IMG/VR virus record: IMGVR_UViG_3300035703_002708
DNA from: a virus
Lineage: Duplodnaviria > Caudoviricetes
Length of the DNA: 64,000 bases
Reading direction: 5' to 3' (one strand)
Made by a program: the position numbers and the translations under genes. Below the pieces are notes generated by a model. The model was given only the letters and a program-made list of their open reading frames with translations, made no database searches and was not told where the DNA came from. Every line of letters begins with the position of its first letter. Positions within the stretch are counted from its first letter, which is position 1. Of this stretch, positions 3,281-62,631 are shown one piece after another.

Positions 3281-5581
3281 ATGTCTTGTCAATATAATTT
3301 TAGTCAATTTTCAGTAACAGGAGACTGTGAAAATAATAGTTCTGGAGGTTTTACGCTTTACTTATCCTCAACCTCGGAACCGATGAGTATTACTTGGTTG
3401 TTGCCAAATCCATGGCCACCCGGCATTGGAGGACCTCAAGTCGAGACCCCAATTTATAATGGAACTTACACTTATTTAGGAATTCCTGCAGGAACATATG
3501 TTTTTACTGTAAATGATAGTTGCGGAAGTCCTACCGCCACCACTGAAAATAATAGAGAAACTATAAGTATTACTATATCATCAGGTTCGTCATGCGTCAA
3601 TATAACAGATGTTGTAAATACCACTTGCGGTAATTCTGATGGTTCTTTATTGGCAACTGTTCAGAATACAAATGGTGCTGTTAATATCAAACTATATTTG
3701 GAGGATAATGATGGTAGAGTAGTCCCATTACCACAACCACCAGGTCAAGAAGATATTACGTTTATTAGGGAAGTTGAAATAGACAATGACAATTATTTAT
3801 TTGATAATCTTCCGTATGGAAAATATTATGTTATTGCTGATGATGGAGGAGGTTGTACAGGAAGAAGTGAAAGTGTCATAATATTACCATCGGTAGGTGT
3901 TAATTTCGGGACATATATTGTTAATGATGCGGACTGTGGTAATGTAGAAACAGGTGTTGGTAAGATTTTTATAACAGGTTTGACAGGCACTGGGCCCTAC
4001 ACTTATAGATGGGAAGGTGTTGGTACTACATTAGATTATTTGGTTAACACTGAACAACCACTTACAGGTACATCAATAACAGGATTAACCGCCGGTTTTT
4101 ATCAGGCTACAGTCACGGACTCGAATGGTTGTAGTTTTTCTGTGATATCACAAGTTATCGAAAAACTTCCTGTAAGTTTAGGCAGCGTTTCAACATCACC
4201 ACCCACATGTTTTGATAGTAACGGGAAAATAACAGTACAAGTACTTAATGGTACTCCACCATATAGATTTAGTATCCCATCTATTTCATTTACAGATATA
4301 AGTTATTCTCAAACATACGTTTTCAGTGGTTTACCCGGGGGTAACTACACTATAGTAATAACCGATGCGGCTCTCTGCAGTGTTTCAACAACGACACAAA
4401 TAAATCAATCCAATAGCTTTGCTTTGGGGCCGGTGACTATTATCCCACCAACTTGCGGAAATTCAAATGGTTCCATTTCGATAGGACTCGTTGGTAACAC
4501 AAATTCAAGTAGTTATTTATATTCTTTGAGTGGTGCTAATGGAGTAACTTTTTCGAGTGTAACATCAACTAACAACACATTTTCTAATTTATTACCTCAG
4601 AATTATTTTCTTACAATTACCGACAATATTTGTACCTATACTCAGTTAATAAACTTATCGTCCAATTCACTTTTTACCATATCAACACAAACTTCGGGTG
4701 CAACATGTGGTAATAATAACGGGAGTGTTACCATAACTAAATCAACAGGTGGTACAAGTACCTTTTCATATTGGATAGAGGATGTTGATGGGAATAACGA
4801 CCAAACATTGGACAACACACCACTGAGTTCTTGTACATTTTACAATTTGGCGCCTGGAAGTTATATTGCTTACGTAAGTGACAAAAATAGATGTCAAGAA
4901 CAAACCTTCTTTGAAATAAGTAACAGTGAACCTGTAAATTTTATTTTGATACCAACGGATTCCACAAATGGGTCAAACGGACAAATAATTGCAAATATCT
5001 ATCAAGGAACACCTCCTTTTACTTTGACATGGTCATCTAATGTCAATGGACAAACAGGTACAACTGTAACTAATTTATCTGCCGGTACCTATAGTCTCAT
5101 AGTGCAAGACAGTGCAGGTTGCGTTCAGTCCAATACGGTTACACTGTCAGGTACTTATAATGCAACAAATTTCTCATTGTTTAATGTATGTAATAGCGTG
5201 ATAAGTTCTACCGGACAATTTACAGAAAGAAGTTTATCAAAGATGTTAGTTGAGGGTTACATAGATTTGACTAGTGGATGTACAAATTGTCTTATGAATT
5301 CGGCAATATTTTCAGCGGTTACAACAGTTGCAGGAACTGGTTTTAGTCAGTCTTTCTATACCGCAACAACGTTAAACGATGTTCCTTCAGAATCAAATTG
5401 GGCGACAACTGTTCAGAATCTTCTTAGTGGTATAACAGGTGTAGGTACCGTTACAGTTAATACTACAGAAAACACAATTACATTAGACACTTCTTGTGAG
5501 GAAAGTACAAACGCATTGGCCAATCAAAATATTACCGTCGAACTTAAAATTGTTTATGACATAGATTGTGAAAGTTGTTAA
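3281..5581 (+). CDS. SprB-repeat, Cys/Thr-rich putative tail fibre/adhesin
   Basis: Several units of the form TC..xxG.I.v...gGTpPY.y.w....f.nL.aG.Y...vTD.ngC, matching SprB repeats by eye. Confidence 0.65.
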   Translation: MSCQYNFSQFSVTGDCENNSSGGFTLYLSSTSEPMSITWLLPNPWPPGIGGPQVETPIYNGTYTYLGIPAGTYVFTVNDSCGSPTATTENNRETISITISSGSSCVNITDVVNTTCGNSDGSLLATVQNTNGAVNIKLYLEDNDGRVVPLPQPPGQEDITFIREVEIDNDNYLFDNLPYGKYYVIADDGGGCTGRSESVIILPSVGVNFGTYIVNDADCGNVETGVGKIFITGLTGTGPYTYRWEGVGTTLDYLVNTEQPLTGTSITGLTAGFYQATVTDSNGCSFSVISQVIEKLPVSLGSVSTSPPTCFDSNGKITVQVLNGTPPYRFSIPSISFTDISYSQTYVFSGLPGGNYTIVITDAALCSVSTTTQINQSNSFALGPVTIIPPTCGNSNGSISIGLVGNTNSSSYLYSLSGANGVTFSSVTSTNNTFSNLLPQNYFLTITDNICTYTQLINLSSNSLFTISTQTSGATCGNNNGSVTITKSTGGTSTFSYWIEDVDGNNDQTLDNTPLSSCTFYNLAPGSYIAYVSDKNRCQEQTFFEISNSEPVNFILIPTDSTNGSNGQIIANIYQGTPPFTLTWSSNVNGQTGTTVTNLSAGTYSLIVQDSAGCVQSNTVTLSGTYNATNFSLFNVCNSVISSTGQFTERSLSKMLVEGYIDLTSGCTNCLMNSAIFSAVTTVAGTGFSQSFYTATTLNDVPSESNWATTVQNLLSGITGVGTVTVNTTENTITLDTSCEESTNALANQNITVELKIVYDIDCESC

Positions 5582-6325
5582 ATGATGCAAAATATTATAA
5601 TATCATCTATAACAGGTTTAACACCACCCTATGAAATTTATGTTTGTGATTTCTTAGGTAATAATTGTCAATTAGTAGAAATAATCACATATAGTGTCCC
5701 CCCAATTGAAGTAATATCTTTACCTGATTATTTTAGTGGTGCCCCTGCAGTCTCATTGAAAATTGTGGAAACAAACGTACCCTGTGAAAAAAATATACCA
5801 GTTGTTTGTTCCTATTTCGGTAATGTGTTATTCACATTTTGTAAATGTAGTGATTTATCACAATGTATTTACACCGAAACAAATCCATTTTTGGTTTTTG
5901 GACAAGTTGTATCTTTGAACGAATATCCTGAATGTTGGCAATTTTCAGGATACCAATTTACAAATCAAACAGGAGAAGTTTTAACAGTAAACGGACTACC
6001 TTTTAATTCATGTCAAGAATGTTATGATGTTGTTGCCCCCTCTTATTTTAGTGCCTGTTGCTCAAACTACACTTTTAATTTTGATGAAACATTTCAGTCA
6101 ACATTCGAACCTAATAAAAGTTGGTATGTAAATATCCCTCCATCTGTTAGTGGTACGGGGACAGGATATACAGGTTGTACAGTTGTTATAAGTAACTATA
6201 TAACTCCTGACCAAACTTATGTACAAGCAGATTGGAACAACATTACGAATACCAATAATTCACCTGTTTTTCCTAATCCACCGATGTTTGATTGCAATGA
6301 TTGTACTGAAGTAATATCTTGTTAA
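5582..6325 (+). CDS. Cys-rich virion-associated protein
   Basis: 247 aa, many Cys (CQEC, CNDC, CC); N-terminal domain similar to ORF 12416-12652. Confidence 0.55.
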   Translation: MMQNIIISSITGLTPPYEIYVCDFLGNNCQLVEIITYSVPPIEVISLPDYFSGAPAVSLKIVETNVPCEKNIPVVCSYFGNVLFTFCKCSDLSQCIYTETNPFLVFGQVVSLNEYPECWQFSGYQFTNQTGEVLTVNGLPFNSCQECYDVVAPSYFSACCSNYTFNFDETFQSTFEPNKSWYVNIPPSVSGTGTGYTGCTVVISNYITPDQTYVQADWNNITNTNNSPVFPNPPMFDCNDCTEVISC

Positions 6326-40000: not shown

Positions 40001-40690
40001 ATGAAATCCTTTATCTTACTATTGTTATTTTTACTTCCTTCATTAATCCAAGGTCAAAGTTATACCATAAGTGGTAATTATACTTATGGAATTTCAGTTT
40101 TTGATTTGGATAAAACATCCTTTTATGATTTAAGAAACGAAAGAAGATTTACACCAGGGTATTCCTATGGTCTGTCAATTGGAAAGTTTTACAGGTCAGG
40201 ATATTATCAAAAAAAGTTTTGGGGTGTGAAACTCGAATTCAACAAGTTTCAGTATGCGCAGAACATCAGGCTAGTTCCCGAATCAATTCCACTGACCTCA
40301 CTCAAATTTATTGAGAAACGAATACAAGTAGATGGTTATTCAATTACACCAACCGCTTGTTATTACCCATCTGTAGGACAAAGTTTATTTGTTGAGTTCG
40401 GACCATCTTTTAATCACATATCTCAACAAACACAATCAACAGTATCAAATACAGTAGGTTTTGACTCACCATTAGTGCCCTATGAGTTTAAAAAAAATTT
40501 TCTTAGTTTATATTTGAGGTCTGGAGTATATTTTAATTTGACTGATTGGTTAGGTTTTAATATCGCTCTATTTTCAAAAACTAATATCACACCTGTTGTA
40601 GAAGATAACACATTTAGAAGTTATTTTTTTGGTGTTGATGGTGGTTTGACCTTTAGAATTGGAAAATGGAAAAGTTCTCGTACTCGTTAA
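40001..40690 (+). CDS. Outer-membrane beta-barrel protein (PorT/OmpA-barrel-like)
   Basis: Signal peptide, alternating amphipathic strands, terminal FFGVDGGLTFRIG. Confidence 0.6.
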   Translation: MKSFILLLLFLLPSLIQGQSYTISGNYTYGISVFDLDKTSFYDLRNERRFTPGYSYGLSIGKFYRSGYYQKKFWGVKLEFNKFQYAQNIRLVPESIPLTSLKFIEKRIQVDGYSITPTACYYPSVGQSLFVEFGPSFNHISQQTQSTVSNTVGFDSPLVPYEFKKNFLSLYLRSGVYFNLTDWLGFNIALFSKTNITPVVEDNTFRSYFFGVDGGLTFRIGKWKSSRTR

Positions 40691-42060
40691 TACTAATTTT
40701 ATTGTCAGTATTTTGTTTTGGACAAATACCTGGTCCATCAACTAATTGGTATTTCGGAGCTTTTGCAGGAATTACATTTAATTCAGGAAGTCCTGTTGCG
40801 CTTACCAACGGAGTTTTAAACACTACAGAAGGGGTTGCGACAATATCTGATAACTCAGGTAATTTACTATTTTATACAGATGGTGTAACTGTTTATAACA
40901 GGTTTCATGCGGTTATGACAAATGGATTGGGTTTGTTTGGAGATGCTTCATCCACACAATCGGCAATCATAGTTCAGAAACCTAATGAACCAAACATATA
41001 TTATATTTTTACATCAGATAATGATGTCGGACCAAATGGTATTTGTTATTCTACCGTTGATATGAATGCTGGATTTGGATTAGGTGCCGTAATAACAAAA
41101 AACATACAACTAAAAACACCCTCATGTGAAAAACTATGTGCTGTCAGAAATTGTAACAATCAAGACATATGGGTTATTTCAAAGGATTGGGGAAACAATA
41201 CATTTACCGCTTGGTCAGTAAATTCTTCGGGTGTTGGAGTTATCACATCTTGGTCAAATGCCGGTAGTGTTATAAATGGTGTTTCACAATCATCTTATGG
41301 ACAATTGAAAGCATCGCCTAATGGTAGAAAATTAGCCGCCTGTCATTATGGAACCACCACAGGAGGAATCAATAAAGTAGAATTATACGACTTTGACCCA
41401 GCGACAGGATATGTTTCAAATGGAGTTACTTTACATACTCAATTAGGTGTGTATGGTGTTGAATTCTCACCTGATGGTAAAGTATTATACGCTGGCACCA
41501 ATCAAGGATTACTTATGCAGTGGAACTTATGTGCGGGAACAATACCTCAAATACAATCATCAAGAACAACCATATCAAACGCAGGACCATTTATCGGTTC
41601 AATTCAAAGAGGACCTGATGGGAAGATATATGTTGCAAGAAATAATGATTCGTTATCTGTTATCAATAATCCAAATGTCGTAGGGTTGGGATGTAATTAT
41701 ACCAATTTGTCATTACCTCTTGCAAATAGGTCAAGTAGAATGGGACTACCAAATTTTGCCTCTTTTTATATTCAACAACAATTCGTTTTACCTGACCCCA
41801 CCATTAATTGCACTACCGCCAGTTTCTCAATTCCAATCTCTCAAAACACAGATTGTTTGTCTCAAAATGTTCAATATACTTACCTGTGGGACTTTGGAGA
41901 TGGGACAACATCACCTCAACAAAACCCAAATCACACATATTTATTATCAGGGGTGTATAATGTTTCAGTTACCATTACAGGACCTTGTACATCTACCACA
42001 ATAAACAAAGTTGTTAACATTCCACCTGGAGGTATAACAGTATCAGTATATACAAATTAA
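40666..42060 (+). CDS. Secreted beta-propeller-like + PKD domain protein
   Basis: Signal peptide; NWYFG..AGITF, EGVATISD..GNLLFYTDG, SSTQSAIIV typical of Bacteroidota T9SS cargo; WDFGDG PKD. Confidence 0.75.
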   Translation: MEKFSYSLILILLSVFCFGQIPGPSTNWYFGAFAGITFNSGSPVALTNGVLNTTEGVATISDNSGNLLFYTDGVTVYNRFHAVMTNGLGLFGDASSTQSAIIVQKPNEPNIYYIFTSDNDVGPNGICYSTVDMNAGFGLGAVITKNIQLKTPSCEKLCAVRNCNNQDIWVISKDWGNNTFTAWSVNSSGVGVITSWSNAGSVINGVSQSSYGQLKASPNGRKLAACHYGTTTGGINKVELYDFDPATGYVSNGVTLHTQLGVYGVEFSPDGKVLYAGTNQGLLMQWNLCAGTIPQIQSSRTTISNAGPFIGSIQRGPDGKIYVARNNDSLSVINNPNVVGLGCNYTNLSLPLANRSSRMGLPNFASFYIQQQFVLPDPTINCTTASFSIPISQNTDCLSQNVQYTYLWDFGDGTTSPQQNPNHTYLLSGVYNVSVTITGPCTSTTINKVVNIPPGGITVSVYTN

Positions 42061-42062
42061 TT

Positions 42063-42629
42063 ATGAAAAAAATAATCTTTACACTTATTCTTACAATCTT
42101 ATCTGTTGTAGGATATTCGCAAGTACCAACCCCCAATCCTGCAAATGGTGATTTTTATTGTCCTAATGATGTTCAAGTATATGGTGACCAAGTTATCGAC
42201 CCAAACGCCACTTATTCATTTTCAATCACACCAGCATTTCCTTTTAACGTAATTTCAGGTGGAGACCAAATTGAGGTTACTTGGACAACACCAGGTGTTT
42301 ATACAATTGAAATTACAAAAACAATCGGTGAGTGTTCTTCTGTTGCGACCGCACAAATTACGGTTTATCCTCCGACAATTCCTATTGTAATTAACGATGC
42401 GTTATGTCAAGGAAACGGAACAATAAACTTGACAGCAAATCCTTTGGGAACAAATCCTGTTTTTGGTGGTATAGGTGTAACAGGAAGTGTGTTTAACGCA
42501 GCAGGGTTAGCACCTGGCAACTATCCAATCACTTTTACATCCATTGATGCAAATGGTTGTCCTATGTCAGGAAATGGTTTAATTGTGATAACTCCTCCTC
42601 CTACCACACCTATAATCTATACTGACTAA
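42063..42629 (+). CDS. Secreted Ig-like/PKD-like protein
   Basis: Signal peptide; VTWTTPGVYTI, GNYPITF Ig-like strands. Confidence 0.65.
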   Translation: MKKIIFTLILTILSVVGYSQVPTPNPANGDFYCPNDVQVYGDQVIDPNATYSFSITPAFPFNVISGGDQIEVTWTTPGVYTIEITKTIGECSSVATAQITVYPPTIPIVINDALCQGNGTINLTANPLGTNPVFGGIGVTGSVFNAAGLAPGNYPITFTSIDANGCPMSGNGLIVITPPPTTPIIYTD

Positions 42630-43243
42630 TGAAAATACTGGGGGTATTAAATTCATTTACAGCGAAGGTATTACTGATATTTACAGTAATATTTATACTT
42701 TCTTCTGCTGTTCCTGTAGGTGAGGACCCACAAGTAATTAACCTTTGTGATACAACTTTCGTATTAAAAAAATACACGGTATATCCTCCATCAGGATATT
42801 TTAGTTCTTGGTTTGTAAATCCCGAAGCAACTATTATTGGCTCGTCAACTGAAAACACATTAACAATCAAATGGACTGAACCAGGAAACTATACAATTAT
42901 CGCTCAGTTCTCAAATGGTAGATGTGTAAGTAATAGTAAATTGGATGTTATTGTTGAAGGTTGCCCTGATTTTACGTTGTATATACCAAACACATTTACT
43001 CCTGATGGTGATAACATAAACGATGTATTTGGTGCATACGGAACCGAAATTGAAGAGTTCAGTATGGAAATATATAACAGGTGGGGAGAACTCATATTTG
43101 TATCTAACGCACTTGAATATAGATGGGATGGATACTATAAAGGTAACCTTTGCCAACAAGATGTCTATGTATTCAAAATAAGATATAAAGCAAGAAACTT
43201 CGTATCCAAAGCAATCTACGGTAGAGTTCTTCTACTTAATTAG
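42629..43243 (+). CDS. Protein with T9SS type B C-terminal sorting domain (gliding-motility-associated CTD)
   Basis: YIPNTFTPDGDNINDVF...IYNRWGELIF...WDG...DVYVFKI matches the CHU_C/TIGR04131 pattern. Confidence 0.85.
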   Translation: MKILGVLNSFTAKVLLIFTVIFILSSAVPVGEDPQVINLCDTTFVLKKYTVYPPSGYFSSWFVNPEATIIGSSTENTLTIKWTEPGNYTIIAQFSNGRCVSNSKLDVIVEGCPDFTLYIPNTFTPDGDNINDVFGAYGTEIEEFSMEIYNRWGELIFVSNALEYRWDGYYKGNLCQQDVYVFKIRYKARNFVSKAIYGRVLLLN

Positions 43244-50580: not shown

Positions 50581-50603
50581 GTTTTGTATCATATTTATTG
50601 GAT

Positions 50604-52001
50604 ATGAAAAAAATACTCAAGGAATCAGGTATCAGAGATATTAATAAGTTAGCCGACAGATACAAAAAAGCAAAAATTTATTTTCACCAAGATTTGGACG
50701 GAGTAACTACCGCCCTAGCCATGAAAAACTACTTAGAAAACCAAGGGATTAAAGTAGTTGATACAGAAATAATACAATACGGAGATAGAGAGTTTGCGGT
50801 CAAAAAAACTGACGCAGAAGGAGATGTAATGCCGGTTTTGGTTGATTTTGCACACGGAAAACCCATGTTTGTCATTCATACAGACCACCACGACACTCAA
50901 GCAGGAGCAGAAGATACCAAATCAACAAGTTTCAGACCATCAAGGTCAAATGTTAAAACAATATCACAAACGGTATCACCCAAAGAAATATTCACATCTG
51001 AAGACATTGAATTAATCTCTATGGTTGATTCCGCCGACTATGCCTCTAAAGACATAACACCAAAAGAAGTTATCACTTATCTATTTCAATTAGATAAGGA
51101 TAAATCACTCCAAAGAAATAAAACCTTATTAGGTTTGGTTACGAACAAACTTTTATTGGCATTCAAAAACAAACCTGAGTTTTTGGAAAATATCGTAATG
51201 AATGCGCAGCCATCAATAATCTCCATTCTAAACAACATCAAAAGACAAATCAAAGAAAGAGGTTTTGCTGATGTTGATACATTAGAAAAAAACAAAGAGG
51301 GTTACATAGAACAAATGAAAAAAAGCCCAAATGTCCAAGATTTAGGTAATATTATAGTTCAATACGGTGGTGGTTATATGGTAAAACCAGGTTCTTATGA
51401 TAGATACACACCATTTGAGAATAACCCCGATGCTGACTTTTTGGTAATCGCATGGCCTTTAGGGTTGGTTCAAGCATCTTGTAATCCATTCAAAAAAGAA
51501 AGACAACTCAAAGGAGTTAATTTAGGTGAAGTTAAAGATGAAGTACTATCGAAGTGGGAAGGTCAGTTGAAACAAAAACAAGTTCCACTCTCAACAATTA
51601 AGTGGGTATCAGAAACATCAGTAGGTGAAGGTTCAGTAGGTTTTACATTCAAAGATTTTGTTGCAATTTACGGAAAAGAATTTACTAAGATGGATAATGG
51701 TAGAGATATCTTAACAGAAATTGGTTATTCTATGAACAAACACTTTGATGAATTATCTGAGGATGAGAAAGAGTTATTAGATAACGTTACAGTAAATGCT
51801 TGGGACATAATACAAGCAAACTCCGGTGGGCACAAATGTATAACAAACATCTCGGGACTTAATTATTTGGGAAGAGGAAAAAGACCACCTTCAGGAAAAC
51901 CAAAATTTGGTGACGAAGAAAAGGAATCATACGTTAAATTTGTAAAGATGGTTCAAAAAGAGTTTGTGGATGTGTTGAAAAAGAAAATCGATACTAAATA
52001 A
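50604..52001 (+). CDS. DHH-family phosphoesterase
   Basis: HQDLDGV, LVDFA, HTDHHD, VDSAD, C-terminal SGGH (DHHA1-like GGH); TATTTAT at 50592. Confidence 0.7.
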   Translation: MKKILKESGIRDINKLADRYKKAKIYFHQDLDGVTTALAMKNYLENQGIKVVDTEIIQYGDREFAVKKTDAEGDVMPVLVDFAHGKPMFVIHTDHHDTQAGAEDTKSTSFRPSRSNVKTISQTVSPKEIFTSEDIELISMVDSADYASKDITPKEVITYLFQLDKDKSLQRNKTLLGLVTNKLLLAFKNKPEFLENIVMNAQPSIISILNNIKRQIKERGFADVDTLEKNKEGYIEQMKKSPNVQDLGNIIVQYGGGYMVKPGSYDRYTPFENNPDADFLVIAWPLGLVQASCNPFKKERQLKGVNLGEVKDEVLSKWEGQLKQKQVPLSTIKWVSETSVGEGSVGFTFKDFVAIYGKEFTKMDNGRDILTEIGYSMNKHFDELSEDEKELLDNVTVNAWDIIQANSGGHKCITNISGLNYLGRGKRPPSGKPKFGDEEKESYVKFVKMVQKEFVDVLKKKIDTK

Positions 52002-53456: not shown

Positions 53457-53900
53457 ATGGAATTGAAAAGATACTCAGGTGTTTTAATCAGATGTAAAGA
53501 TAAAGTTTTACTTTGCCAAAGAAGTTTCGATGAGGATTCAAGACCAGGTGAGTGGTCAATTCCTTGTGGTCATCAAGAAAAAAACGAAGATAAGGTGTCT
53601 TGTGCCATAAGAGAATTATATGAAGAAACAAACATTCAAGTAAGTCCGAGAGATTTGGCTTACGTGGGTGGAATTAAAACTAACGATGAATCAAATAATT
53701 ATGTGAGAGGAATATTGAGTGTGTTTGTTATGGATTCAGATGAAGAAATTTATCCTGATTTAACAGGTGCGAAAGATGGACAAGAACACCAAGAATGTGG
53801 ATATTTTACCATAGATAATTTACCTTCACCATTAGGTTCAGGACTAAAAGAGATTATCAACAAGTTATTATCAAAAAAACTTTCAACAATTAAGTTATAA
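53457..53900 (+). CDS. NUDIX hydrolase
   Basis: WSIPCGHQEKNEDKVSCAIRELYEETNI Nudix box. Confidence 0.88.
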   Translation: MELKRYSGVLIRCKDKVLLCQRSFDEDSRPGEWSIPCGHQEKNEDKVSCAIRELYEETNIQVSPRDLAYVGGIKTNDESNNYVRGILSVFVMDSDEEIYPDLTGAKDGQEHQECGYFTIDNLPSPLGSGLKEIINKLLSKKLSTIKL

Positions 53901-56070: not shown

Positions 56071-57696
56071 ATGGCAAAGTTCCGAAATTCCGCAGTTGTA
56101 GAAAAATTAGATAACACCCCACCCAAAGAAAACTTGGTTGCATCAAACGCAGTTCCGAAACCCGATACGACAAATCTTCAAGGGTTCGAGGCTTATTCAA
56201 TTGAAAATTGGCTCCGTCTGATTTCTATTTTGAATACTTCTAAATTGGAGAACCAGTATTATCGTTCAGAAACAGAAACTATGAAAGAGTTGAAATCTCT
56301 TGTGGATATCTGTGGTAAAGAGGACCCATACTTTGTGGCTCAGTGTATCGTGTATTCTCGTTGTATTGGTGAGGGTATGAGAAGTATTAATCACTTGGCG
56401 GCAGTTTATCTTGCTCCATTTATGAGTGGTAAAGACTGGTCAAAACGTTTCTTCTCAGGTTGGGATAAGAAATCTCAAAAAGGAGGTACCGTGTTTCGTC
56501 CTGATGATATGAGTGAGATGGTTAGTTGTTTTACCGCCCTTAATGGTAAGTCAATCACCAACTCAATGAAAAAAGGTTTTGCCTCTACGTTAGAGAAACT
56601 TGACACATACTCACTTTTGAAGTATAAGAGTTCGATTTTGGATTTGTTCAATTTGGTTCATCCAAAACAAGAAAACTCAAACGCCACCGTTGAATTCGAA
56701 GGTAGGGTTGTTCCAACATTTGAAGCCATCGTTAAAGGTTATAATGTGTCTGCTGACACTTGGGAGGTTGCTCAGTCAGATGCTGGACAAATTGTGGCTC
56801 AGGCGGTTCGTGAAGGTAAAATCTCAACAGAAGAAGCAAAACAAGTTCTTACTGAGGCAAAGTCTGAGAATTGGAAAGGATTACTTACCGAAAACAAACT
56901 TGGTATCTTGGCAGCAGTTCGTAACATTCGTAACATTCTGTTGAACAAACCTGATGGTGACACTATTAATAAGTTGTGTTCTCTTTTGAGTGATGAAGCC
57001 GCAATTCGTAACGGAAAGGTAATGCCATACCAATTAGATATGGCTAACGAAGTTCTAATATCAGAATTTAACGATTCTAACTCTCGTAAGGTATCAAAGG
57101 CGTTACTTGATGGTTATGAAAAATCCATTCCGAACCTTGCTGAGTTACTTACAGGTAACAACCTTGTAATGATTGATATGTCAGGTTCTATGAACACAGG
57201 AATCAATGACCCTAAAGGCAAGTCACGTTACAAATCTACGTGTTTGGACAAGGCATCACTAATCGGTATGACAATCGCCAAGGCAGTAAACGCCGATGTA
57301 ATTCGTTTCGGTTCACACGCTGAGTATGTTTCTTACAATACAAACTCTGATGTGTTCAGTTTGTCTAAATCTATCATTCAAGGAATGGGAGGAACCTCAC
57401 TGGCACAAGCGTGGAGTACGGCAGAAGCATCAGGTCGTAAGTATGATAGAGTATTTATTCTGTCAGATAATGAGTGTAATGAAGGTTCAACTTACTCTCG
57501 ATACAAGAGTTATGTTGAAAAAGTTGGGGACCCGTATGTCTATTCAATAGACCTAGCCGCTTACGGAACAATGGCTATCGCGGGACCAAAAGTAAGATAC
57601 TACTACGGATATGGTTTTTCAATGTTCGAAGATATTGCAAAATCAGAGTTCAACCCGATGCACCACATCGAAAAAATCCGCAAAGTAGAAATCTAA
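56071..57696 (+). CDS. TROVE-domain Ro60/Rsr-like RNA-binding protein with vWA domain
   Basis: NLQGFEAY, DPYFVAQCIVYSR..GMRS (TROVE); MIDMSGSM MIDAS, GGTS, ILSDNE, IDLAAYG (vWA); 541 aa. Confidence 0.9.
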   Translation: MAKFRNSAVVEKLDNTPPKENLVASNAVPKPDTTNLQGFEAYSIENWLRLISILNTSKLENQYYRSETETMKELKSLVDICGKEDPYFVAQCIVYSRCIGEGMRSINHLAAVYLAPFMSGKDWSKRFFSGWDKKSQKGGTVFRPDDMSEMVSCFTALNGKSITNSMKKGFASTLEKLDTYSLLKYKSSILDLFNLVHPKQENSNATVEFEGRVVPTFEAIVKGYNVSADTWEVAQSDAGQIVAQAVREGKISTEEAKQVLTEAKSENWKGLLTENKLGILAAVRNIRNILLNKPDGDTINKLCSLLSDEAAIRNGKVMPYQLDMANEVLISEFNDSNSRKVSKALLDGYEKSIPNLAELLTGNNLVMIDMSGSMNTGINDPKGKSRYKSTCLDKASLIGMTIAKAVNADVIRFGSHAEYVSYNTNSDVFSLSKSIIQGMGGTSLAQAWSTAEASGRKYDRVFILSDNECNEGSTYSRYKSYVEKVGDPYVYSIDLAAYGTMAIAGPKVRYYYGYGFSMFEDIAKSEFNPMHHIEKIRKVEI

Positions 57697-57708
57697 TGGG
57701 GATTAGTT

Positions 57709-57739
57709 ATGGGGTGAATGGTTGATTCACCCCATTTTT
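57709..57739 (+). terminator. Intrinsic terminator after the TROVE gene
   Basis: ATGGGGTGAAT-loop-ATTCACCCCAT followed by TTTT. Confidence 0.8.
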
Positions 57740-57759
57740 CAAAAAAACAATCAACCCAC

Positions 57760-57788
57760 TTGACTGGTGTCAAAAGTTTGATTAATAT
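57760..57788 (+). promoter_or_regulatory. -35/-10 promoter of the ncRNA unit
   Basis: TTGACT-N17-TAATAT; boxA-like GTTCTTT at 57798. Confidence 0.6.
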
Positions 57789-57812
57789 TGTCACATAGTT
57801 CTTTAAAAAATA

Positions 57813-57939
57813 GACGTAGTAAGATTAGGGTTACTTCAATACATCGGTTCGAATCCGATACCTGTGAAAACAGGTTAGACAAGTGGATAAGTCGGAATTC
57901 TCATAAATTCAAAACAACACCCTGTTCATCATTCTCGTC
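57813..57939 (+). ncRNA. Y-RNA-like RNA 1 (YrlA-like) with permuted tRNA-like insert
   Basis: GACG/CGTC closing stem, TAGTAA..GTTACTTC and AACAC..ATTCT motifs; internal T-arm ATCGG-TTCGAAT-CCGAT; next to Ro60 gene. Confidence 0.75.
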
Positions 57940-57951
57940 ACCTTATACTTT

Positions 57952-58024
57952 AAGGTAGTAAGTTAAGTGTTACTTCGAAATAATCTGGAAATGTTCAAAA
58001 AAAAACACTTACGATATTCTCCTT
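57952..58024 (+). ncRNA. Y-RNA-like RNA 2 (short form)
   Basis: AAGG/CCTT closing stem, same motifs, 8-bp inner stem TAAGTGTT/AACACTTA. Confidence 0.65.
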
Positions 58025-58037
58025 AAATCGTTCTTTT

Positions 58038-58166
58038 CAGATAGTAATTCAAGAGTTACTTCTACAATTTAAATTAAATCGCGCCCTATATGGGCATCTA
58101 TCTATGAACGAAATCTAACCTTCGGGTTATTTTTCACCTAAAAACACTCTTGGAAAAATTCTTCTG
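58038..58166 (+). ncRNA. Y-RNA-like RNA 3
   Basis: CAGA/TCTG closing stem, same motifs, CAAGAGT/ACTCTTG inner stem, hairpins GCCC-TATAT-GGGC and TAACC-TTCG-GGTTA. Confidence 0.65.
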
Positions 58167-58175
58167 AATTCATTT

Positions 58176-58205
58176 AAAAAGGGGACCATCGGGTCTCCTT
58201 TTTTT
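58176..58205 (+). terminator. Intrinsic terminator ending the ncRNA unit
   Basis: AAAAAGGGGACC-ATCG-GGTCTCC followed by T run. Confidence 0.8.
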
Positions 58206-58239
58206 GTTTTATACACTATTTATAAAAAAAGGACATACT

Positions 58240-58545
58240 ATGGTTAATATAATGATTTCTGAAGAACAACTTGCCAGATTGGTTAATAAAATGAAACCAG
58301 TTAATGAAAGCAAAGATGGTAGTTATATGGCAAAACAACAACTATTTACCATCGCTACAATGGCTCACGAAATGTGGCAAGCGTTGGATGAGGGAGAACA
58401 ATTGGACGATTGGATGGAATCAAAAATCGCACAAGCAGACCAAAGTATTACTTCCGTTGTTAAGGCTTATTTCTATGATGAGATAACCGATGACCAAAAA
58501 GGAATGGGAATGTTGAATTACGATGATTTAGTAATAGGAAAATAA
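58240..58545 (+). CDS. Small protein with N-terminal leader, putative head-internal protein
   Basis: MVNIMISEEQLARLVNKMKPVNE; TATTTAT at 58217. Confidence 0.6.
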   Translation: MVNIMISEEQLARLVNKMKPVNESKDGSYMAKQQLFTIATMAHEMWQALDEGEQLDDWMESKIAQADQSITSVVKAYFYDEITDDQKGMGMLNYDDLVIGK

Positions 58546-61292: not shown

Positions 61293-61508
61293 ATGAATGA
61301 TATAAATAAACTAATAGAACAAGGTAAAGAATTGGCTCGTAAACACGAAGAAATTCGTGATGAAATTCTAAACAATCCTGATATGGCTCAGGAATTAAAA
61401 GATATTATCATTAAAAATAGAATACCCGATGATAATGTTATCGATTTATCTGGGGGTAAAAGAATAAAAAGAATAGACCCTGACACATTTGAAATTGAAT
61501 ATGAATAA
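61293..61508 (+). CDS. Hypothetical protein
   Basis: 71 aa. Confidence 0.5.
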   Translation: MNDINKLIEQGKELARKHEEIRDEILNNPDMAQELKDIIIKNRIPDDNVIDLSGGKRIKRIDPDTFEIEYE

Positions 61509-62631
61509 CATCGATAAGCAATACCAAGCACTCCTACAAGACATACTTGACAATGGAGTTGAGAAGAAAGACCGCACAGGAACTGGTACCATTTCAGTGT
61601 TTGGTAGACAAATCCGTCATAAAATGTCTGATGGGTTTCCACTACTCACAACAAAGAAAATGGCTTGGAAAACTATGGTAACAGAATTACTGTGGTTTTT
61701 AAAAGGTGATACTAATATCAAATACCTTGTTGATAATGATTGTCATATTTGGGATGGTGATGCGTATAAGAACTTCAAGAGTAGATTTAGTCAAATGCCT
61801 GGCATTCAATCTTCGCTTCCTACAAAAGAAGAGTTTATCGATAAAATAAAAAATCAAGATGGATATGCTGAATTGTGGGGTGAATTAGGACCAATTTATG
61901 GTAAACAGTGGAGAAAATGGGAAGTAAATGAACCCAAAGAAATTTTAAGAACTGAAAATGTTACTTGGCCTTATGAACCAAACCCACACACATACCAACA
62001 AAGGGTAGGTACGTTCAAGATAAAACAAATAGACCAAATCCAAAATTTAATCAACAACCTTAAAACAAACCCAGACTCAAGACGATTAATGGTTAATGCT
62101 TGGAATGTAGGTGAATTGGACCAAATGGTTCTTCCACCCTGTCATTATGGATTTCAAGTTTATACAAGAGAGTTGAGTAGAGATGAACGATTTAGATTAT
62201 ATGTCAAAAGAGATAACCCATTATACCCTTTAAATGTTAAAGATGTTAACGAGTATTTAACATTGATAGGAATACCTAAACGAGCAATCTCTTTAATGTG
62301 GAATCAACGTTCAGTAGATACATTCTTAGGTTTACCATTCAATATTGCTAGTTATGGTTTGCTGCTTGAAATTATTGCTAAGGAAATAAATATGGTACCT
62401 GATGAATTGATTGGAAACTTAGGTGATGTACATCTTTATAGTAACCATGTTGAACAGGCTAAGGAACAAATTAGTAGAAAACCATTTGAGTTGCCTAAAT
62501 TAAATATTTTTGAACCAGCAATCGGTAAAGAAATATCTATACTGGATAATTTACATATATGGTCACCTAATTGTTTTATTATAGAAAACTATCAATCACA
62601 CCCCACCATTAAAGCACCTTTATCCAATTAA
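61501..62631 (+). CDS. thyA: Thymidylate synthase
   Basis: DRTGTGT, FPLLTTKK, ELLWFL, LGPIYG, DSRR, LPPCH, QRSVD.FLGLPFNIASY, H.YSNH. Confidence 0.95.
   Translation: MNNIDKQYQALLQDILDNGVEKKDRTGTGTISVFGRQIRHKMSDGFPLLTTKKMAWKTMVTELLWFLKGDTNIKYLVDNDCHIWDGDAYKNFKSRFSQMPGIQSSLPTKEEFIDKIKNQDGYAELWGELGPIYGKQWRKWEVNEPKEILRTENVTWPYEPNPHTYQQRVGTFKIKQIDQIQNLINNLKTNPDSRRLMVNAWNVGELDQMVLPPCHYGFQVYTRELSRDERFRLYVKRDNPLYPLNVKDVNEYLTLIGIPKRAISLMWNQRSVDTFLGLPFNIASYGLLLEIIAKEINMVPDELIGNLGDVHLYSNHVEQAKEQISRKPFELPKLNIFEPAIGKEISILDNLHIWSPNCFIIENYQSHPTIKAPLSN

What the first reader, a model, noticed from the sequence alone, without database searches (positions are those of the whole stretch)
57843..57910. Circularly permuted four-arm tRNA-like module inside Y-like RNA 1
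Seen, in order: T-arm ATCGG-TTCGAAT-CCGAT (57843-57859); acceptor-like stem closed by a GNRA loop, ACCTGT-GAAA-ACAGGT (57860-57875); TA (U8/A9 positions); D-arm GAC-AAGTGGATAA-GTC with GG; G26; anticodon-like arm GAATT-CTCATA-AATTC carrying U-CAU-A in a 6-nt loop. This is a tRNA opened at the variable loop with no free CCA end. Known: YrlA RNAs mimic tRNA with T, closed acceptor and D stems. As I recall, they join the Ro-binding stem at the anticodon-stem position. Inference: this variant keeps an anticodon-like arm with CAU (Met/Ile2-like) and could be a decoy for anticodon nucleases or tRNA-modifying enzymes, or a relic of tRNA capture.
Basis: partly seen in the sequence, partly recalled or inferred. 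Interest (0 to 1): 0.8.

Follow-up and report, generated by a model that had tools for sequence, protein, structure and literature searches.

The report
Rearranged tRNA look-alike in phage Y-RNA
Just downstream of a phage's Ro60-type RNA-binding gene lies a small RNA whose core is a complete four-arm tRNA shape with its strand order rotated and its amino-acid end sealed by a hairpin; about fifty relatives in other uncultured phages keep the same design, which differs from the layouts described for the bacterial Y RNAs YrlA and Yrn1.

Summary
Window 57843-57910 holds, in order, a T arm, a closed acceptor-like hairpin, UA, a D arm with GG, G26 and an anticodon-like arm. All of it sits inside a closing stem (57813-57940), 117 nt after a Ro60/TROVE gene.

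A pattern search and a covariance model recovered 53 distinct full-length homologs from viral and metagenome contigs. In these, 97% of the predicted pairs form and 23 of 32 pairs covary, including all five pairs of the anticodon-like stem. The tertiary 15:48 Levitt pair also covaries.

Put back into canonical order, 47 of 49 modules are called tRNA by ARAGORN. The Y stem leaves at the variable-loop position, not at the anticodon stem as in YrlA. No Rfam family matches.

CAU is kept in all 8 distinct modules whose neighbouring Ro60 is at least 70% identical. Further out it is replaced by GCA, UGA, GAU, UAU and others, while U33 and A37 stay. The window's clade has a 6-nt loop.

Function is untested. 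The most likely reading is a Ro60-bound, non-chargeable tRNA mimic that recruits or titrates a tRNA-binding protein.

Earlier notes of this scan report related phage Ro60-linked tRNA-mimic RNAs on other DNA (Felix O1-type and crAss-like phages). I class this as a new variant of a known kind.

The parts
56071..57696 (+). Ro60/TROVE-vWA homolog (541 aa), the presumed protein partner
   Evidence: phrog_850 'RNA-binding protein', E 1.4e-32. PDB 9KOP/9L5Y (Thermus phage phiLo Ro60), E 2e-10 over residues 31-508. tblastn hits to phage 'Ro sixty-related'/TROVE proteins. Weak Pfam vWA_Ro60 and TROVE hits below cut-off.
57813..57842 (+). 5' strand of the Y-like handle: lower stem GACG (57813-16), bulged U, AG, conserved UAAG, upper stem UAGGGU (57826-31). 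Then the conserved single-stranded UACUUC...C linker; its last base C57842 takes tRNA position 48.
   Evidence: Helices 1 and 2 covary. GTTACTTC and TAG..AA are invariant or nearly so in A1. C/T at 57842 covaries with D-loop position 15.
57843..57859 (+). T arm: ATCGG-TTCGAAT-CCGAT
   Evidence: The helix pairs in 100% of cells and its middle pair covaries AU/UA/CG. The T loop is TTCGAAT or TTCGATT in 47 of 47 modules, but the search pattern itself fixed these bases.
57860..57875 (+). Closed acceptor-like hairpin: ACCTGT-GAAA-ACAGGT (6 bp, GNRA loop)
   Evidence: 6 of 7 model pairs covary. Relatives mostly have 7-8 bp closed by 3-4-nt loops.
57876..57894 (+). U8-A9, then D arm GAC-AAGTGGATAA-GTC (A14, G15, G18 G19, A21), then G26
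   Evidence: GG is invariant in the 47 modules parsed. Position 15 against position 48: G:C 26, A:T 19, A:C 2.
57895..57910 (+). Anticodon-like arm GAATT-CTCATA-AATTC (5 bp, 6-nt loop with U33-CAU-A37)
   Evidence: All 5 pairs covary and 98.8% of cells pair. U33 in 43 of 44 and A37 in 42 of 44 seven-nt loops. The 6-nt loop is shared by the 3 distinct sequences of the window's clade.
57911..57940 (+). 3' linker AAAACAAC, then the 3' strand of the handle: ACCCUG (57919-24), conserved UUC..AUUCU, CGUC (57936-39)
57952..58025 (+). Y-like RNA 2: same handle, no tRNA module
   Evidence: R1 hit through the handle, 42.9 bits, E 2e-6. Motifs read.
58038..58166 (+). Y-like RNA 3: same handle motifs, with two small hairpins as cargo
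   Evidence: Read. The same element is present in L001 and L002. Not modelled.
58176..58203 (+). Terminator-like hairpin with a T run, ending the three-RNA unit
   Evidence: a pattern match only.

Best explanation
Window 57813-57940 encodes a phage Y RNA. Its paired 5' and 3' ends form a conserved bulged 'handle' that most likely binds the Ro60 homolog encoded 117 nt upstream. Its cargo (57843-57910) folds as an L-shaped tRNA mimic.

The mimic has all four tRNA arms in rotated order (T, acceptor, D, anticodon). The acceptor end is sealed by a tetraloop, so it cannot be charged. The handle leaves the core at the variable-loop position, which leaves the elbow and the whole anticodon arm exposed.

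The proposed mechanism is that the RNA presents a non-chargeable tRNA(CAU)-like body to a tRNA-binding protein of host or phage. It thereby tethers that protein to the Ro60 ring as an adaptor, as Y RNAs tether PNPase in Deinococcus and Salmonella.

Shown here: the secondary structure, the Levitt-pair covariation and the linkage to Ro60. Inferred: Ro60 binding, the L-shaped fold and the tethering.

The layout is what a tandem duplication of one tRNA gene, cut at both variable loops, would give.
For: Structure:
- Unguided RNAalifold gives the six helices.
- 96-97% of cells pair, against 29-45% for slid controls; 21-23 of 32 pairs are compensatory.

tRNA identity:
- After re-permutation ARAGORN of 49 modules tRNA. 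The window's is called 'tRNA-???' because of its 6-nt loop.
- U8-A9, A14, G18G19 and the T loop TTCGAAT are all present, though the search pattern fixed several of them.
- The tertiary 15:48 pair covaries G:C (26) and A:T (19).

Ro60 link:
- The 541-aa neighbour is a Ro60 homolog.
- Loci retrieved by the RNA pattern alone carry a Ro60 homolog on the same strand in 62 of 76 cases.
- The handle recurs on RNAs with other cargos and beside a 33%-identical Ro60 in LR745206.1.

Sealed end: the acceptor hairpins are mostly 7-8 bp closed by 3-4-nt loops such as GAAA, GCAA and TTCG.

Selection on the anticodon arm:
- All 5 pairs covary.
- U33 and A37 are near-invariant.
- CUCAUAA is retained on at least 8 different stem sequences.

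Precedent:
- YrlA is a tRNA-shaped effector module of a Ro60-bound RNA.
- A phage Ro60 binds phage Y-like RNAs and host PNPase in vitro (PMC12135203).
Against: - No binding, transcript-end or probing data exist. Metatranscriptome contigs cover the RNA but cannot prove transcription.
- No Rfam Y RNA or YrlA model matches, even at E up to 10.
- The YrlA 5' motif GNCGAAN0-1G is not conserved here.
- The partner of the tRNA-like domain is unknown even for YrlA.
- The window's own copy has a 6-nt anticodon-like loop and a 6-bp acceptor stem, so its mimicry is imperfect.
- The triplet differs among relatives, so if a specific protein reads it, that protein must differ too.
Confidence: 0.5

Rival explanations
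1. Anticodon-specific decoy or sponge. The exposed CUCAUA(A) loop on a sealed tRNA body titrates a host factor that reads tRNA(CAU) anticodon loops. Candidates are an anticodon nuclease of a defence or toxin-antitoxin system, or a CAU-specific enzyme such as MetRS, TilS or TmcA. Ro60 would stabilise the decoy or dispose of cleaved copies.
For: - The loop sequence is the most conserved part of the arm. CAU is present in 8 of 8 distinct modules whose Ro60 is at least 70% identical and in 13 of 24 at 55-70%, while the stems turned over.
- Several replacement loops copy authentic anticodon loops: CUGCAAA, CUUGAAA, CUGAUAA (that these match real tRNA loops is my own knowledge).
- Identical stems carry different triplets, as expected if the triplet is the selected variable.
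- Related phages carry several tRNA-mimic Y RNAs with different triplets.
Against: - No nuclease or target is identified.
- Some triplets (AAA, AAU, AAC, with A34) are, to my knowledge, not normal bacterial anticodons.
- The window's clade has a non-canonical 6-nt loop.
- No RNA-repair or nuclease gene was found in the ORFs scanned around the locus.
Confidence: 0.22
2. The anticodon-like arm is only structural. It keeps the full length and stacking of the tRNA-like L, or is inherited from the tandem-tRNA ancestor, and nothing reads its loop sequence.
For: - The triplet varies widely (entropy 1.1-1.8 bits at positions 34-36, against 0.2-0.3 at positions 33 and 37).
- Non-natural A34 triplets occur.
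- The 6-nt loop is tolerated in the window's clade.
- YrlA works without an anticodon loop.
Against: - CAU persists across many stem turnovers in the closer relatives.
- Loop size, U33 and A37 are kept, which is more than a spacer hairpin needs.
Confidence: 0.22
3. It is the precursor of a working tRNA (a permuted or split tRNA gene). RNase P and 3' trimming would open the acceptor hairpin, CCA would be added, and the two-piece molecule would be charged and used in translation.
For: - M. smegmatis YrlA, with a 7-bp acceptor-like stem, is cleaved by RNase P and receives CCA in vivo (PMC4201824).
- Most relatives have 7-8-bp stems.
- Re-permuted modules pass ARAGORN.
Against: - The window's stem has 6 bp closed by GAAA. 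Salmonella YrlA, also with 6 bp, is not cleaved.
- The hairpin holds no discriminator or CCA.
- Tight tetraloops are common in the family.
- The loop here has 6 nt.
- Position 34 is A in several relatives.
- A handle of about 20 bp at the variable-arm position, probably bound to Ro60, would hardly fit a ribosome (inference).
Confidence: 0.04
4. Chance hairpins in an intergenic region, or part of the 56-aa ORF 57788-57958.
For: The single-sequence fold z-score is only -2.1. An ORF overlaps the region.
Against: There are compensatory changes in 21-23 of 32 pairs across 21-53 sequences, and linkage to Ro60.
Confidence: 0.01

Closest known systems
YrlA (Y RNA-like A) of Salmonella, Mycobacterium and mycobacteriophages (Chen et al. 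2014, PMC4201824; structure PDB 6CU1, Wang et al. 2018, bioRxiv 312249)
   Same: - Encoded beside Ro60 on the same strand.
- The 5' and 3' ends form the protein-binding stem.
- The cargo has the order T arm, closed acceptor-like hairpin, UA, D arm.
- The tRNA elbow nucleotides are kept.
- The Levitt 15:48 pair covaries.
- There is no free CCA end.
   Different: - YrlA has no anticodon loop, and its Ro-binding stem continues the anticodon stem. Here a complete 5-bp anticodon-like arm follows the D arm, and the handle leaves at the variable-loop position.
- YrlA often has a 'V' hairpin upstream of the T arm. Here there is none.
- The YrlA motif GNCGAAN0-1G is not conserved. The conserved handle here is UAG(Y)AA...GUUACUUC with a 3' ...UUCUC.
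- No Rfam model matches.
Deinococcus radiodurans Yrn1 (Chen et al. 2014)
   Same: A Ro60-bound Y RNA whose tRNA-like domain was modelled with an 'anticodon arm' of 5 bp and a 6-nt loop. The window's arm has exactly that size.
   Different: Yrn1 has the order D, anticodon arm, T, with the Y stem at the acceptor position, and its D arm is doubtful. Here the order is T, acceptor, D, anticodon, with a clear D arm.
Yrl1/Yrl2 of Thermus phage phiLo with phage Ro60 (PMC12135203; PDB 9KOP, 9L5Y)
   Same: Phage-encoded Ro60 with several phage-encoded Y-like RNAs next to the gene. The protein is the only PDB sequence match of the window's Ro60.
   Different: The passages I read describe the phiLo RNAs as stem-bulge-stem with a CGAA motif and mention no tRNA-like domain.
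Circularly permuted tRNA genes of Cyanidioschyzon merolae, and permuted two-piece tmRNA genes (my own knowledge; also alluded to)
   Same: The gene order of the tRNA halves is rotated relative to the mature fold.
   Different: Those precursors are processed to give free acceptor ends and working molecules. Here the acceptor end is sealed by a tetraloop, and the free ends lie in the long handle.

Membership tests
Y RNA (Ro60-associated ncRNA) | Encoded close to, and on the same strand as, a Ro60/TROVE ortholog | tested here: met
   The gene at 56071-57696 is a Ro60 homolog. 62 of 76 loci retrieved by the RNA pattern carry a Ro60 homolog on the same strand.
Y RNA (Ro60-associated ncRNA) | 5' and 3' ends pair into a long, bulged stem with conserved nucleotides | tested here: met
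   Helices 1 and 2 covary (9-10 of 12 pairs compensatory). UAG..AA, GUUACUUC and UUCUC are conserved.
Y RNA (Ro60-associated ncRNA) | Physically bound by Ro60 | not testable with these tools
   Needs immunoprecipitation or gel-shift.
YrlA | tRNA-like cargo in the order T arm, closed acceptor-like stem, D arm, with elbow nucleotides and a covarying Levitt pair | tested here: met
YrlA | Ro-binding stem continues the anticodon stem; no anticodon loop | tested here: not met
   A covarying anticodon-like arm is present (57895-57910), and the handle leaves between it and the T arm. Definition.
YrlA | GNCGAAN0-1G motif near the 5' end | tested here: not met
   The window has GACGUAG. The GACG part covaries as a helix (AACG, AGCG, GAUG, GUAG, UCAG...), and only UAG..AA is conserved.
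YrlA | Match to the curated covariance models of Rfam | tested here: not met
   No family reached gathering score in the window. No Y RNA or YrlA model appeared even at E up to 10 in 57600-58300. Only the tRNA model hit related loci.
tRNA | Cloverleaf in canonical order, recognised by tRNA finders | tested here: not met
   ARAGORN found 0 genes in the window. Rfam tRNA gave no hit.
tRNA | All four arms and the conserved core, once the order is restored | tested here: met
   47 of 49 re-permuted modules are called tRNA. The window's is called with a 2-nt 'anticodon' because its loop has 6 nt.
tRNA | Free 5' and 3' acceptor ends with a discriminator base and CCA (encoded or added) | tested here: not met
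   The acceptor is closed by GAAA and no CCA is encoded. Whether it is ever cleaved cannot be tested here.
Permuted tRNA genes (C. merolae type) | Precursor ends are joined and the acceptor ends released by processing to give a working tRNA | not testable with these tools
   The sequence features argue against it: a tight tetraloop, a 6-bp stem and a 6-nt loop.

The most novel reading that the evidence does not exclude
Phages of this group arm their Ro60 particle with sealed, complete tRNA look-alikes whose exposed anticodon loops are the selected, fast-switching part (CAU in most; GCA, UGA, GAU and others elsewhere). The RNP would be a counter-defence device that baits or senses host anticodon-directed nucleases or anticodon-reading enzymes, and the family would be a living intermediate showing that Y RNAs arose from tandem tRNA duplicates.
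Probability: 0.15. Interest if true: 0.85.

Novelty: new variant of a known kind. Interest (0 to 1): 0.62.

Why it matters
What the tRNA-like domain of bacterial Y RNAs binds has been open since 2014. This family gives a sharper handle on that question.
- The mimic is complete, anticodon arm included.
- The arm is clearly under selection.
- The loop sequence is conserved in close relatives yet switched in others.
- The same handle carries at least three different tRNA layouts in related phages.

This makes testable predictions: which tRNA-binding protein co-purifies, and whether the triplet matters.

The layout T-acceptor-D-anticodon is what a tandem duplicate of one tRNA gene cut at the variable loops would give. 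This supports the published idea that Y RNAs derive from dimeric tRNA transcripts (quoted in bioRxiv 312249).

The family has no Rfam model. No record matched it in the GenBank phage collection.

Tried and rejected
Searches that found nothing:
- Rfam at gathering score over the whole window, and at E up to 10 over 57600-58300: nothing relevant.
- ARAGORN on the native window: no gene.
- blastn of the three-RNA region, and of a consensus-like relative, against GenBank phages: no match.
- No whole genome is held for the window.
- The T-to-D pattern in 185,579 representative bacterial and archaeal genomes gave 5 hits; none is this RNA by the covariance model. So no host or prophage copy was found.

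Literature not available:
- The reviews by Sim & Wolin (PMC6047535, PMC10870794) are not held.
- The supplement of Chen et al. 2014 is not held. I therefore could not check whether any of their 22 phage YrlA candidates already has this layout.
- A literature search for a decoy idea for Y RNAs found nothing relevant.

RNA evidence:
- Contigs of four metatranscriptomic runs from three studies cover 57744-58023 at 97-100% identity. Contigs cannot show ends, strand or level, and DNA may be present in such libraries, so this is not counted as proof of expression.
- Nothing was laid over 58033-58246; no conclusion is drawn from that.

Origin from a particular tRNA:
- The best global identities of re-permuted modules to about 990 distinct tRNA sequences called by ARAGORN in the fetched loci are 0.68-0.74. 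tRNA-Met(CAU) and Cys(GCA) are among the top hits but barely above other isoacceptors, so this is not decisive.
- One relative (L008 842-985) shares its 19-nt anticodon arm exactly with a phage tRNA-Met(CAU).

Gene context: Pfam and PHROGs on 27 neighbouring ORFs show a DNA methylase, NUDIX, a weak DHH hit, GIY-YIG, PKD/T9SS cargo and ThyA. There is no RtcB, RNA ligase or nuclease that would point to a mechanism.

Full report
**What is there.** The window is a phage-like contig. No cellular genome is held for it, and its genes are small and mostly on the + strand. The ORFs scanned include a DNA methylase, NUDIX, ThyA, and PKD and T9SS-CTD proteins that hint at a Bacteroidota host.

ORF 56071-57696 encodes a 541-aa Ro60/TROVE-vWA homolog:
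- phrog_850 'RNA-binding protein', E 1.4e-32.
- The only PDB sequence matches are the Ro60 of Thermus phage phiLo (9KOP, 9L5Y), E 2e-10 over residues 31-508.
- tblastn finds 81 phage records annotated as Ro-related or TROVE, the best at 33% identity (LR745206.1).
- Pfam hits to vWA_Ro60 and TROVE are below cut-off.

After a hairpin following the stop codon come three tandem elements: 57813-57940, 57952-58025 and about 58038-58166. They share the 5' motif TAGTAA..N..GTTACTTC and the 3' motif ACAC..TTCT. They are followed by a terminator-like hairpin at 58176-58203.

**The observation.** The MFE fold of 57800-57970 gives these four hairpins enclosed by a stem formed by 57813-31 and 57919-39. Its z-score of -2.1 is modest, so the case rests on comparative data.

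**Homologs.** The Ro60 protein retrieved 9 viral loci at 63-98% identity. Their downstream regions showed the same module with changed, still complementary stems. A pattern spanning the T loop to the start of the D arm retrieved 26 viral and 77 metagenome loci.

On a MAFFT alignment of 21 full-length RNAs (A1), RNAalifold, given no structure, predicts the two handle helices plus the T, acceptor, D and anticodon arms. 22 of its 32 pairs show compensatory change. Counting my six-helix structure on the same alignment gives:
- 96.1% of cells paired, against 28.6-44.8% when partners are slid by 1-3 columns.
- 21 of 32 pairs with changes on both sides.
- 0 of 500 shuffles reaching any measure.

A covariance model (R1) found 53 distinct full-length members at 79-144 bits. 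The window scores 121.8 bits, but it was in the seed. On that alignment 97.4% of cells pair and 23 of 32 pairs covary. In the anticodon-like stem all five pairs covary and 98.8% of cells pair. This alignment is fitted to the model, so the MAFFT-based counts are the cleaner evidence.

**Is it a tRNA shape?** In native order neither ARAGORN nor the Rfam tRNA model sees it. I cut the acceptor hairpin at its loop and joined the two linker ends with a 5-nt variable loop made of native flanking bases. ARAGORN then of 49 distinct modules tRNA: Met 22, then Ile, Cys, Val, Ser, Phe and others. The window's copy is called 'tRNA-???' with a 2-nt anticodon because its loop has 6 nt. The two failures were due to my hairpin splitter stopping at a mismatch.

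The core nucleotides are those of tRNA: U8-A9, A14, G18-G19, A21, purine 26, and the T loop UUCGAAU. Some of these were fixed by the search pattern.

Position 15 of the D loop and the last base before the T stem were not fixed by the pattern. This is the Levitt pair, and it covaries: G:C 26, A:U 19, A:C 2. It is a tertiary contact, and Chen et al. used the same evidence for YrlA. It supports an L-shaped fold, though no 3D test was possible.

**Topology.** Going round the junction, the order is handle, T, acceptor, D, anticodon arm. In a tRNA the order is variable region, T, acceptor, D, anticodon arm.

In YrlA the order is handle, V, T, AS, D. The handle continues the anticodon stem and there is no anticodon loop. 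In Deinococcus Yrn1 the order is D, 'anticodon arm' (5 bp, 6-nt loop), T. The window's layout is therefore a third arrangement.

It is what one obtains from two tandem copies of one tRNA gene read from variable loop to variable loop. This fits the published suggestion that YrlA-type RNAs arose from dimeric tRNA transcripts. It would also explain why the two strands of the acceptor hairpin are complementary.

**The anticodon-like loop.** I parsed 47 distinct modules that have a handle and at least 4 stem pairs. Of these, 44 have a 7-nt loop:
- Pyrimidine at position 32 in 43 of 44 loops.
- U33 in 43 of 44.
- A37 in 42 of 44.
- Positions 34-36 vary, with entropy 1.8, 1.1 and 1.2 bits.

CAU occurs in 22 modules, on at least 8 different stem sequences. 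It is present in 8 of 8 distinct modules whose neighbouring Ro60 is at least 70% identical to the window's. It is present in 13 of 24 at 55-70% identity and in 0 of 4 below 55%.

Other triplets are GCA, UGA, GAU, UAU, AAU, AAA, AAC, CAC, CAA, GUU and UCA. Identical stems carry different triplets. For example, GCAAT/ATTGC carries CAU or GCA, TCTAA/TTAGA carries GCA, CAU or AAA, and TCTGA/TCAGA carries five different loops.

So the arm's shape is under purifying selection. CAU is preferred in the window's wider clade. The triplet can switch in place, which argues against repeated capture of different tRNAs.

The three distinct sequences of the window's own clade (window/L001, L002, L202) share the 6-nt loop CUCAUA. 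This is apparently a one-base loss in the A run.

**Sealed end.** The acceptor hairpins mostly have 7 bp with a 4-nt loop (12 modules) or 8 bp with a 3-nt loop (10 modules). Loops include GAAA, GCAA, GTAA and TTCG. No discriminator base or CCA is encoded. The window's stem has 6 bp, like Salmonella YrlA, which RNase P does not cleave. M. smegmatis YrlA, with 7 bp, is cleaved and receives CCA. Cleavage of some relatives therefore cannot be excluded, but charging of the window's RNA is unlikely.

**Link to Ro60.** Of 76 locus instances found through the RNA pattern alone, 62 carry a homolog of the window's Ro60, always on the same strand. The module usually lies 130-1800 nt downstream of it and sometimes 1.8-4.3 kb upstream. 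The 14 without a homolog are mostly short contigs or have the RNA near an edge.

The handle alone recurs on RNAs with other cargos:
- RNA 2 of the window.
- An element beside the 33%-identical Ro60 of LR745206.1.
- RNAs in L006, L008, L009 and L087 that carry non-permuted (acceptor-D-anticodon-T) or differently permuted (anticodon-V-T-acceptor-D) tRNA mimics.

Ro60 binding itself is inferred from this synteny and from the YrlA, Yrn1 and phiLo precedents.

**Expression.** Short contigs from four metatranscriptomic runs of three studies cover 57744-58023, three of them with no mismatch. This is compatible with an abundant RNA. It proves neither transcription nor the ends.

**Mechanism.** The reading I favour (about 0.5) is a Ro60-bound Y RNA whose cargo is a non-chargeable but otherwise complete tRNA mimic. 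It recruits a tRNA-binding protein to the Ro60 ring. Because the handle leaves at the variable-arm position, both the elbow and the anticodon loop are free, unlike in YrlA.
- An anticodon-specific decoy is the most interesting rival (about 0.2). In its favour are CAU conservation over stem turnover and replacement loops that look authentic. Against it are A34 triplets, the 6-nt loop here, and no identified target.
- A purely structural arm is about equally likely.
- A tRNA precursor is unlikely.
- Chance is excluded.

**Novelty.** Neither the Y RNA papers I could read nor Rfam describe a Y RNA with the order T-acceptor-D-anticodon and the handle at the variable loop. I could not read two reviews or the 2014 supplement.

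Earlier AI notes of this scan report phage Ro60-linked permuted or non-permuted tRNA-mimic RNAs in Felix O1-type and crAss-like phages. They also contain first-reader notes on this same locus. I did not test those other loci.

I class this as a new variant of a known kind.

Noticed in passing
window 57952-58025 and 58038-58166: Two further Y-like RNAs share the handle (TAGTAA..GTTACTTC / ACAC..TTCT) but carry no tRNA module. RNA 2 has only an A-rich loop. RNA 3 has two small hairpins (GCCC-TATA-TGGGC and AACC-TTCG-GGTT). So one Ro60 gene comes with three different cargos.
   Followed up: partly
L008 4215-4350 and 4355-4490; L009 3596-3730; L006 6024-6160; L087 1607-1740 and 3705-3840: The same handle encloses non-permuted tRNA mimics in the order acceptor-D-anticodon-T. 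ARAGORN or the Rfam tRNA model (50-54 bits) calls several of them as tRNA-Lys(UUU), Ile(GAU), Pro(UGG) or Leu(CAG). The acceptor stem has only about 5 bp and uses the conserved CUUC of the handle.
   Followed up: partly
L008 ~4491-4640; L006 ~6163-6290; L087 ~3841-3990: A third layout on the same handle: anticodon-like arm (loops CUGUUAA, CUGGAAC), short variable stretch, T arm, closed acceptor, D arm. This is a tRNA opened at position 26. Read by eye only.
   Followed up: no
L005-L007, about 60-250 nt after the Ro60 stop (L006 ~4155-4345): A ~190-nt element begins ACTCAGG and ends with a T arm followed by CCTGAGT-A-CCA. It looks like a tRNA or tmRNA acceptor/T domain with a large insert. Neither ARAGORN nor Rfam calls it. 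Unexplained.
   Followed up: no
L233 2543-2611 (LR745206.1, 634-kb uncultured phage): A handle-only Y-like RNA (28.7 bits with R1) lies about 400 nt upstream of a Ro60 homolog that is only 33% identical. The handle therefore goes with this Ro60 branch well beyond the window's relatives.
   Followed up: partly
L008 842-985: The 19-nt anticodon arm of this permuted module (A-TCTGA-CTCATAA-TCAGA-C) is identical to that of a tRNA-Met(CAU) called by ARAGORN in the fetched loci. Its T arm differs from that tRNA's by one base. This hints at exchange between tRNA genes and Y RNA cargos.
   Followed up: partly
window 61489-62631: The thymidylate synthase is 380 aa against a 266-position Pfam profile that is matched end to end. 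This suggests an insertion of about 100 aa.
   Followed up: no
window 40666-43243: PKD-domain proteins and a CHU_C (type IX secretion C-terminal) domain protein are encoded by the phage. This suggests a Bacteroidota host.
   Followed up: no
window 50598-52001 and 53457-53900: A weak DHH phosphoesterase hit and a NUDIX hydrolase lie a few kb upstream of the Ro60 gene. I saw no link to the RNA system.
   Followed up: no
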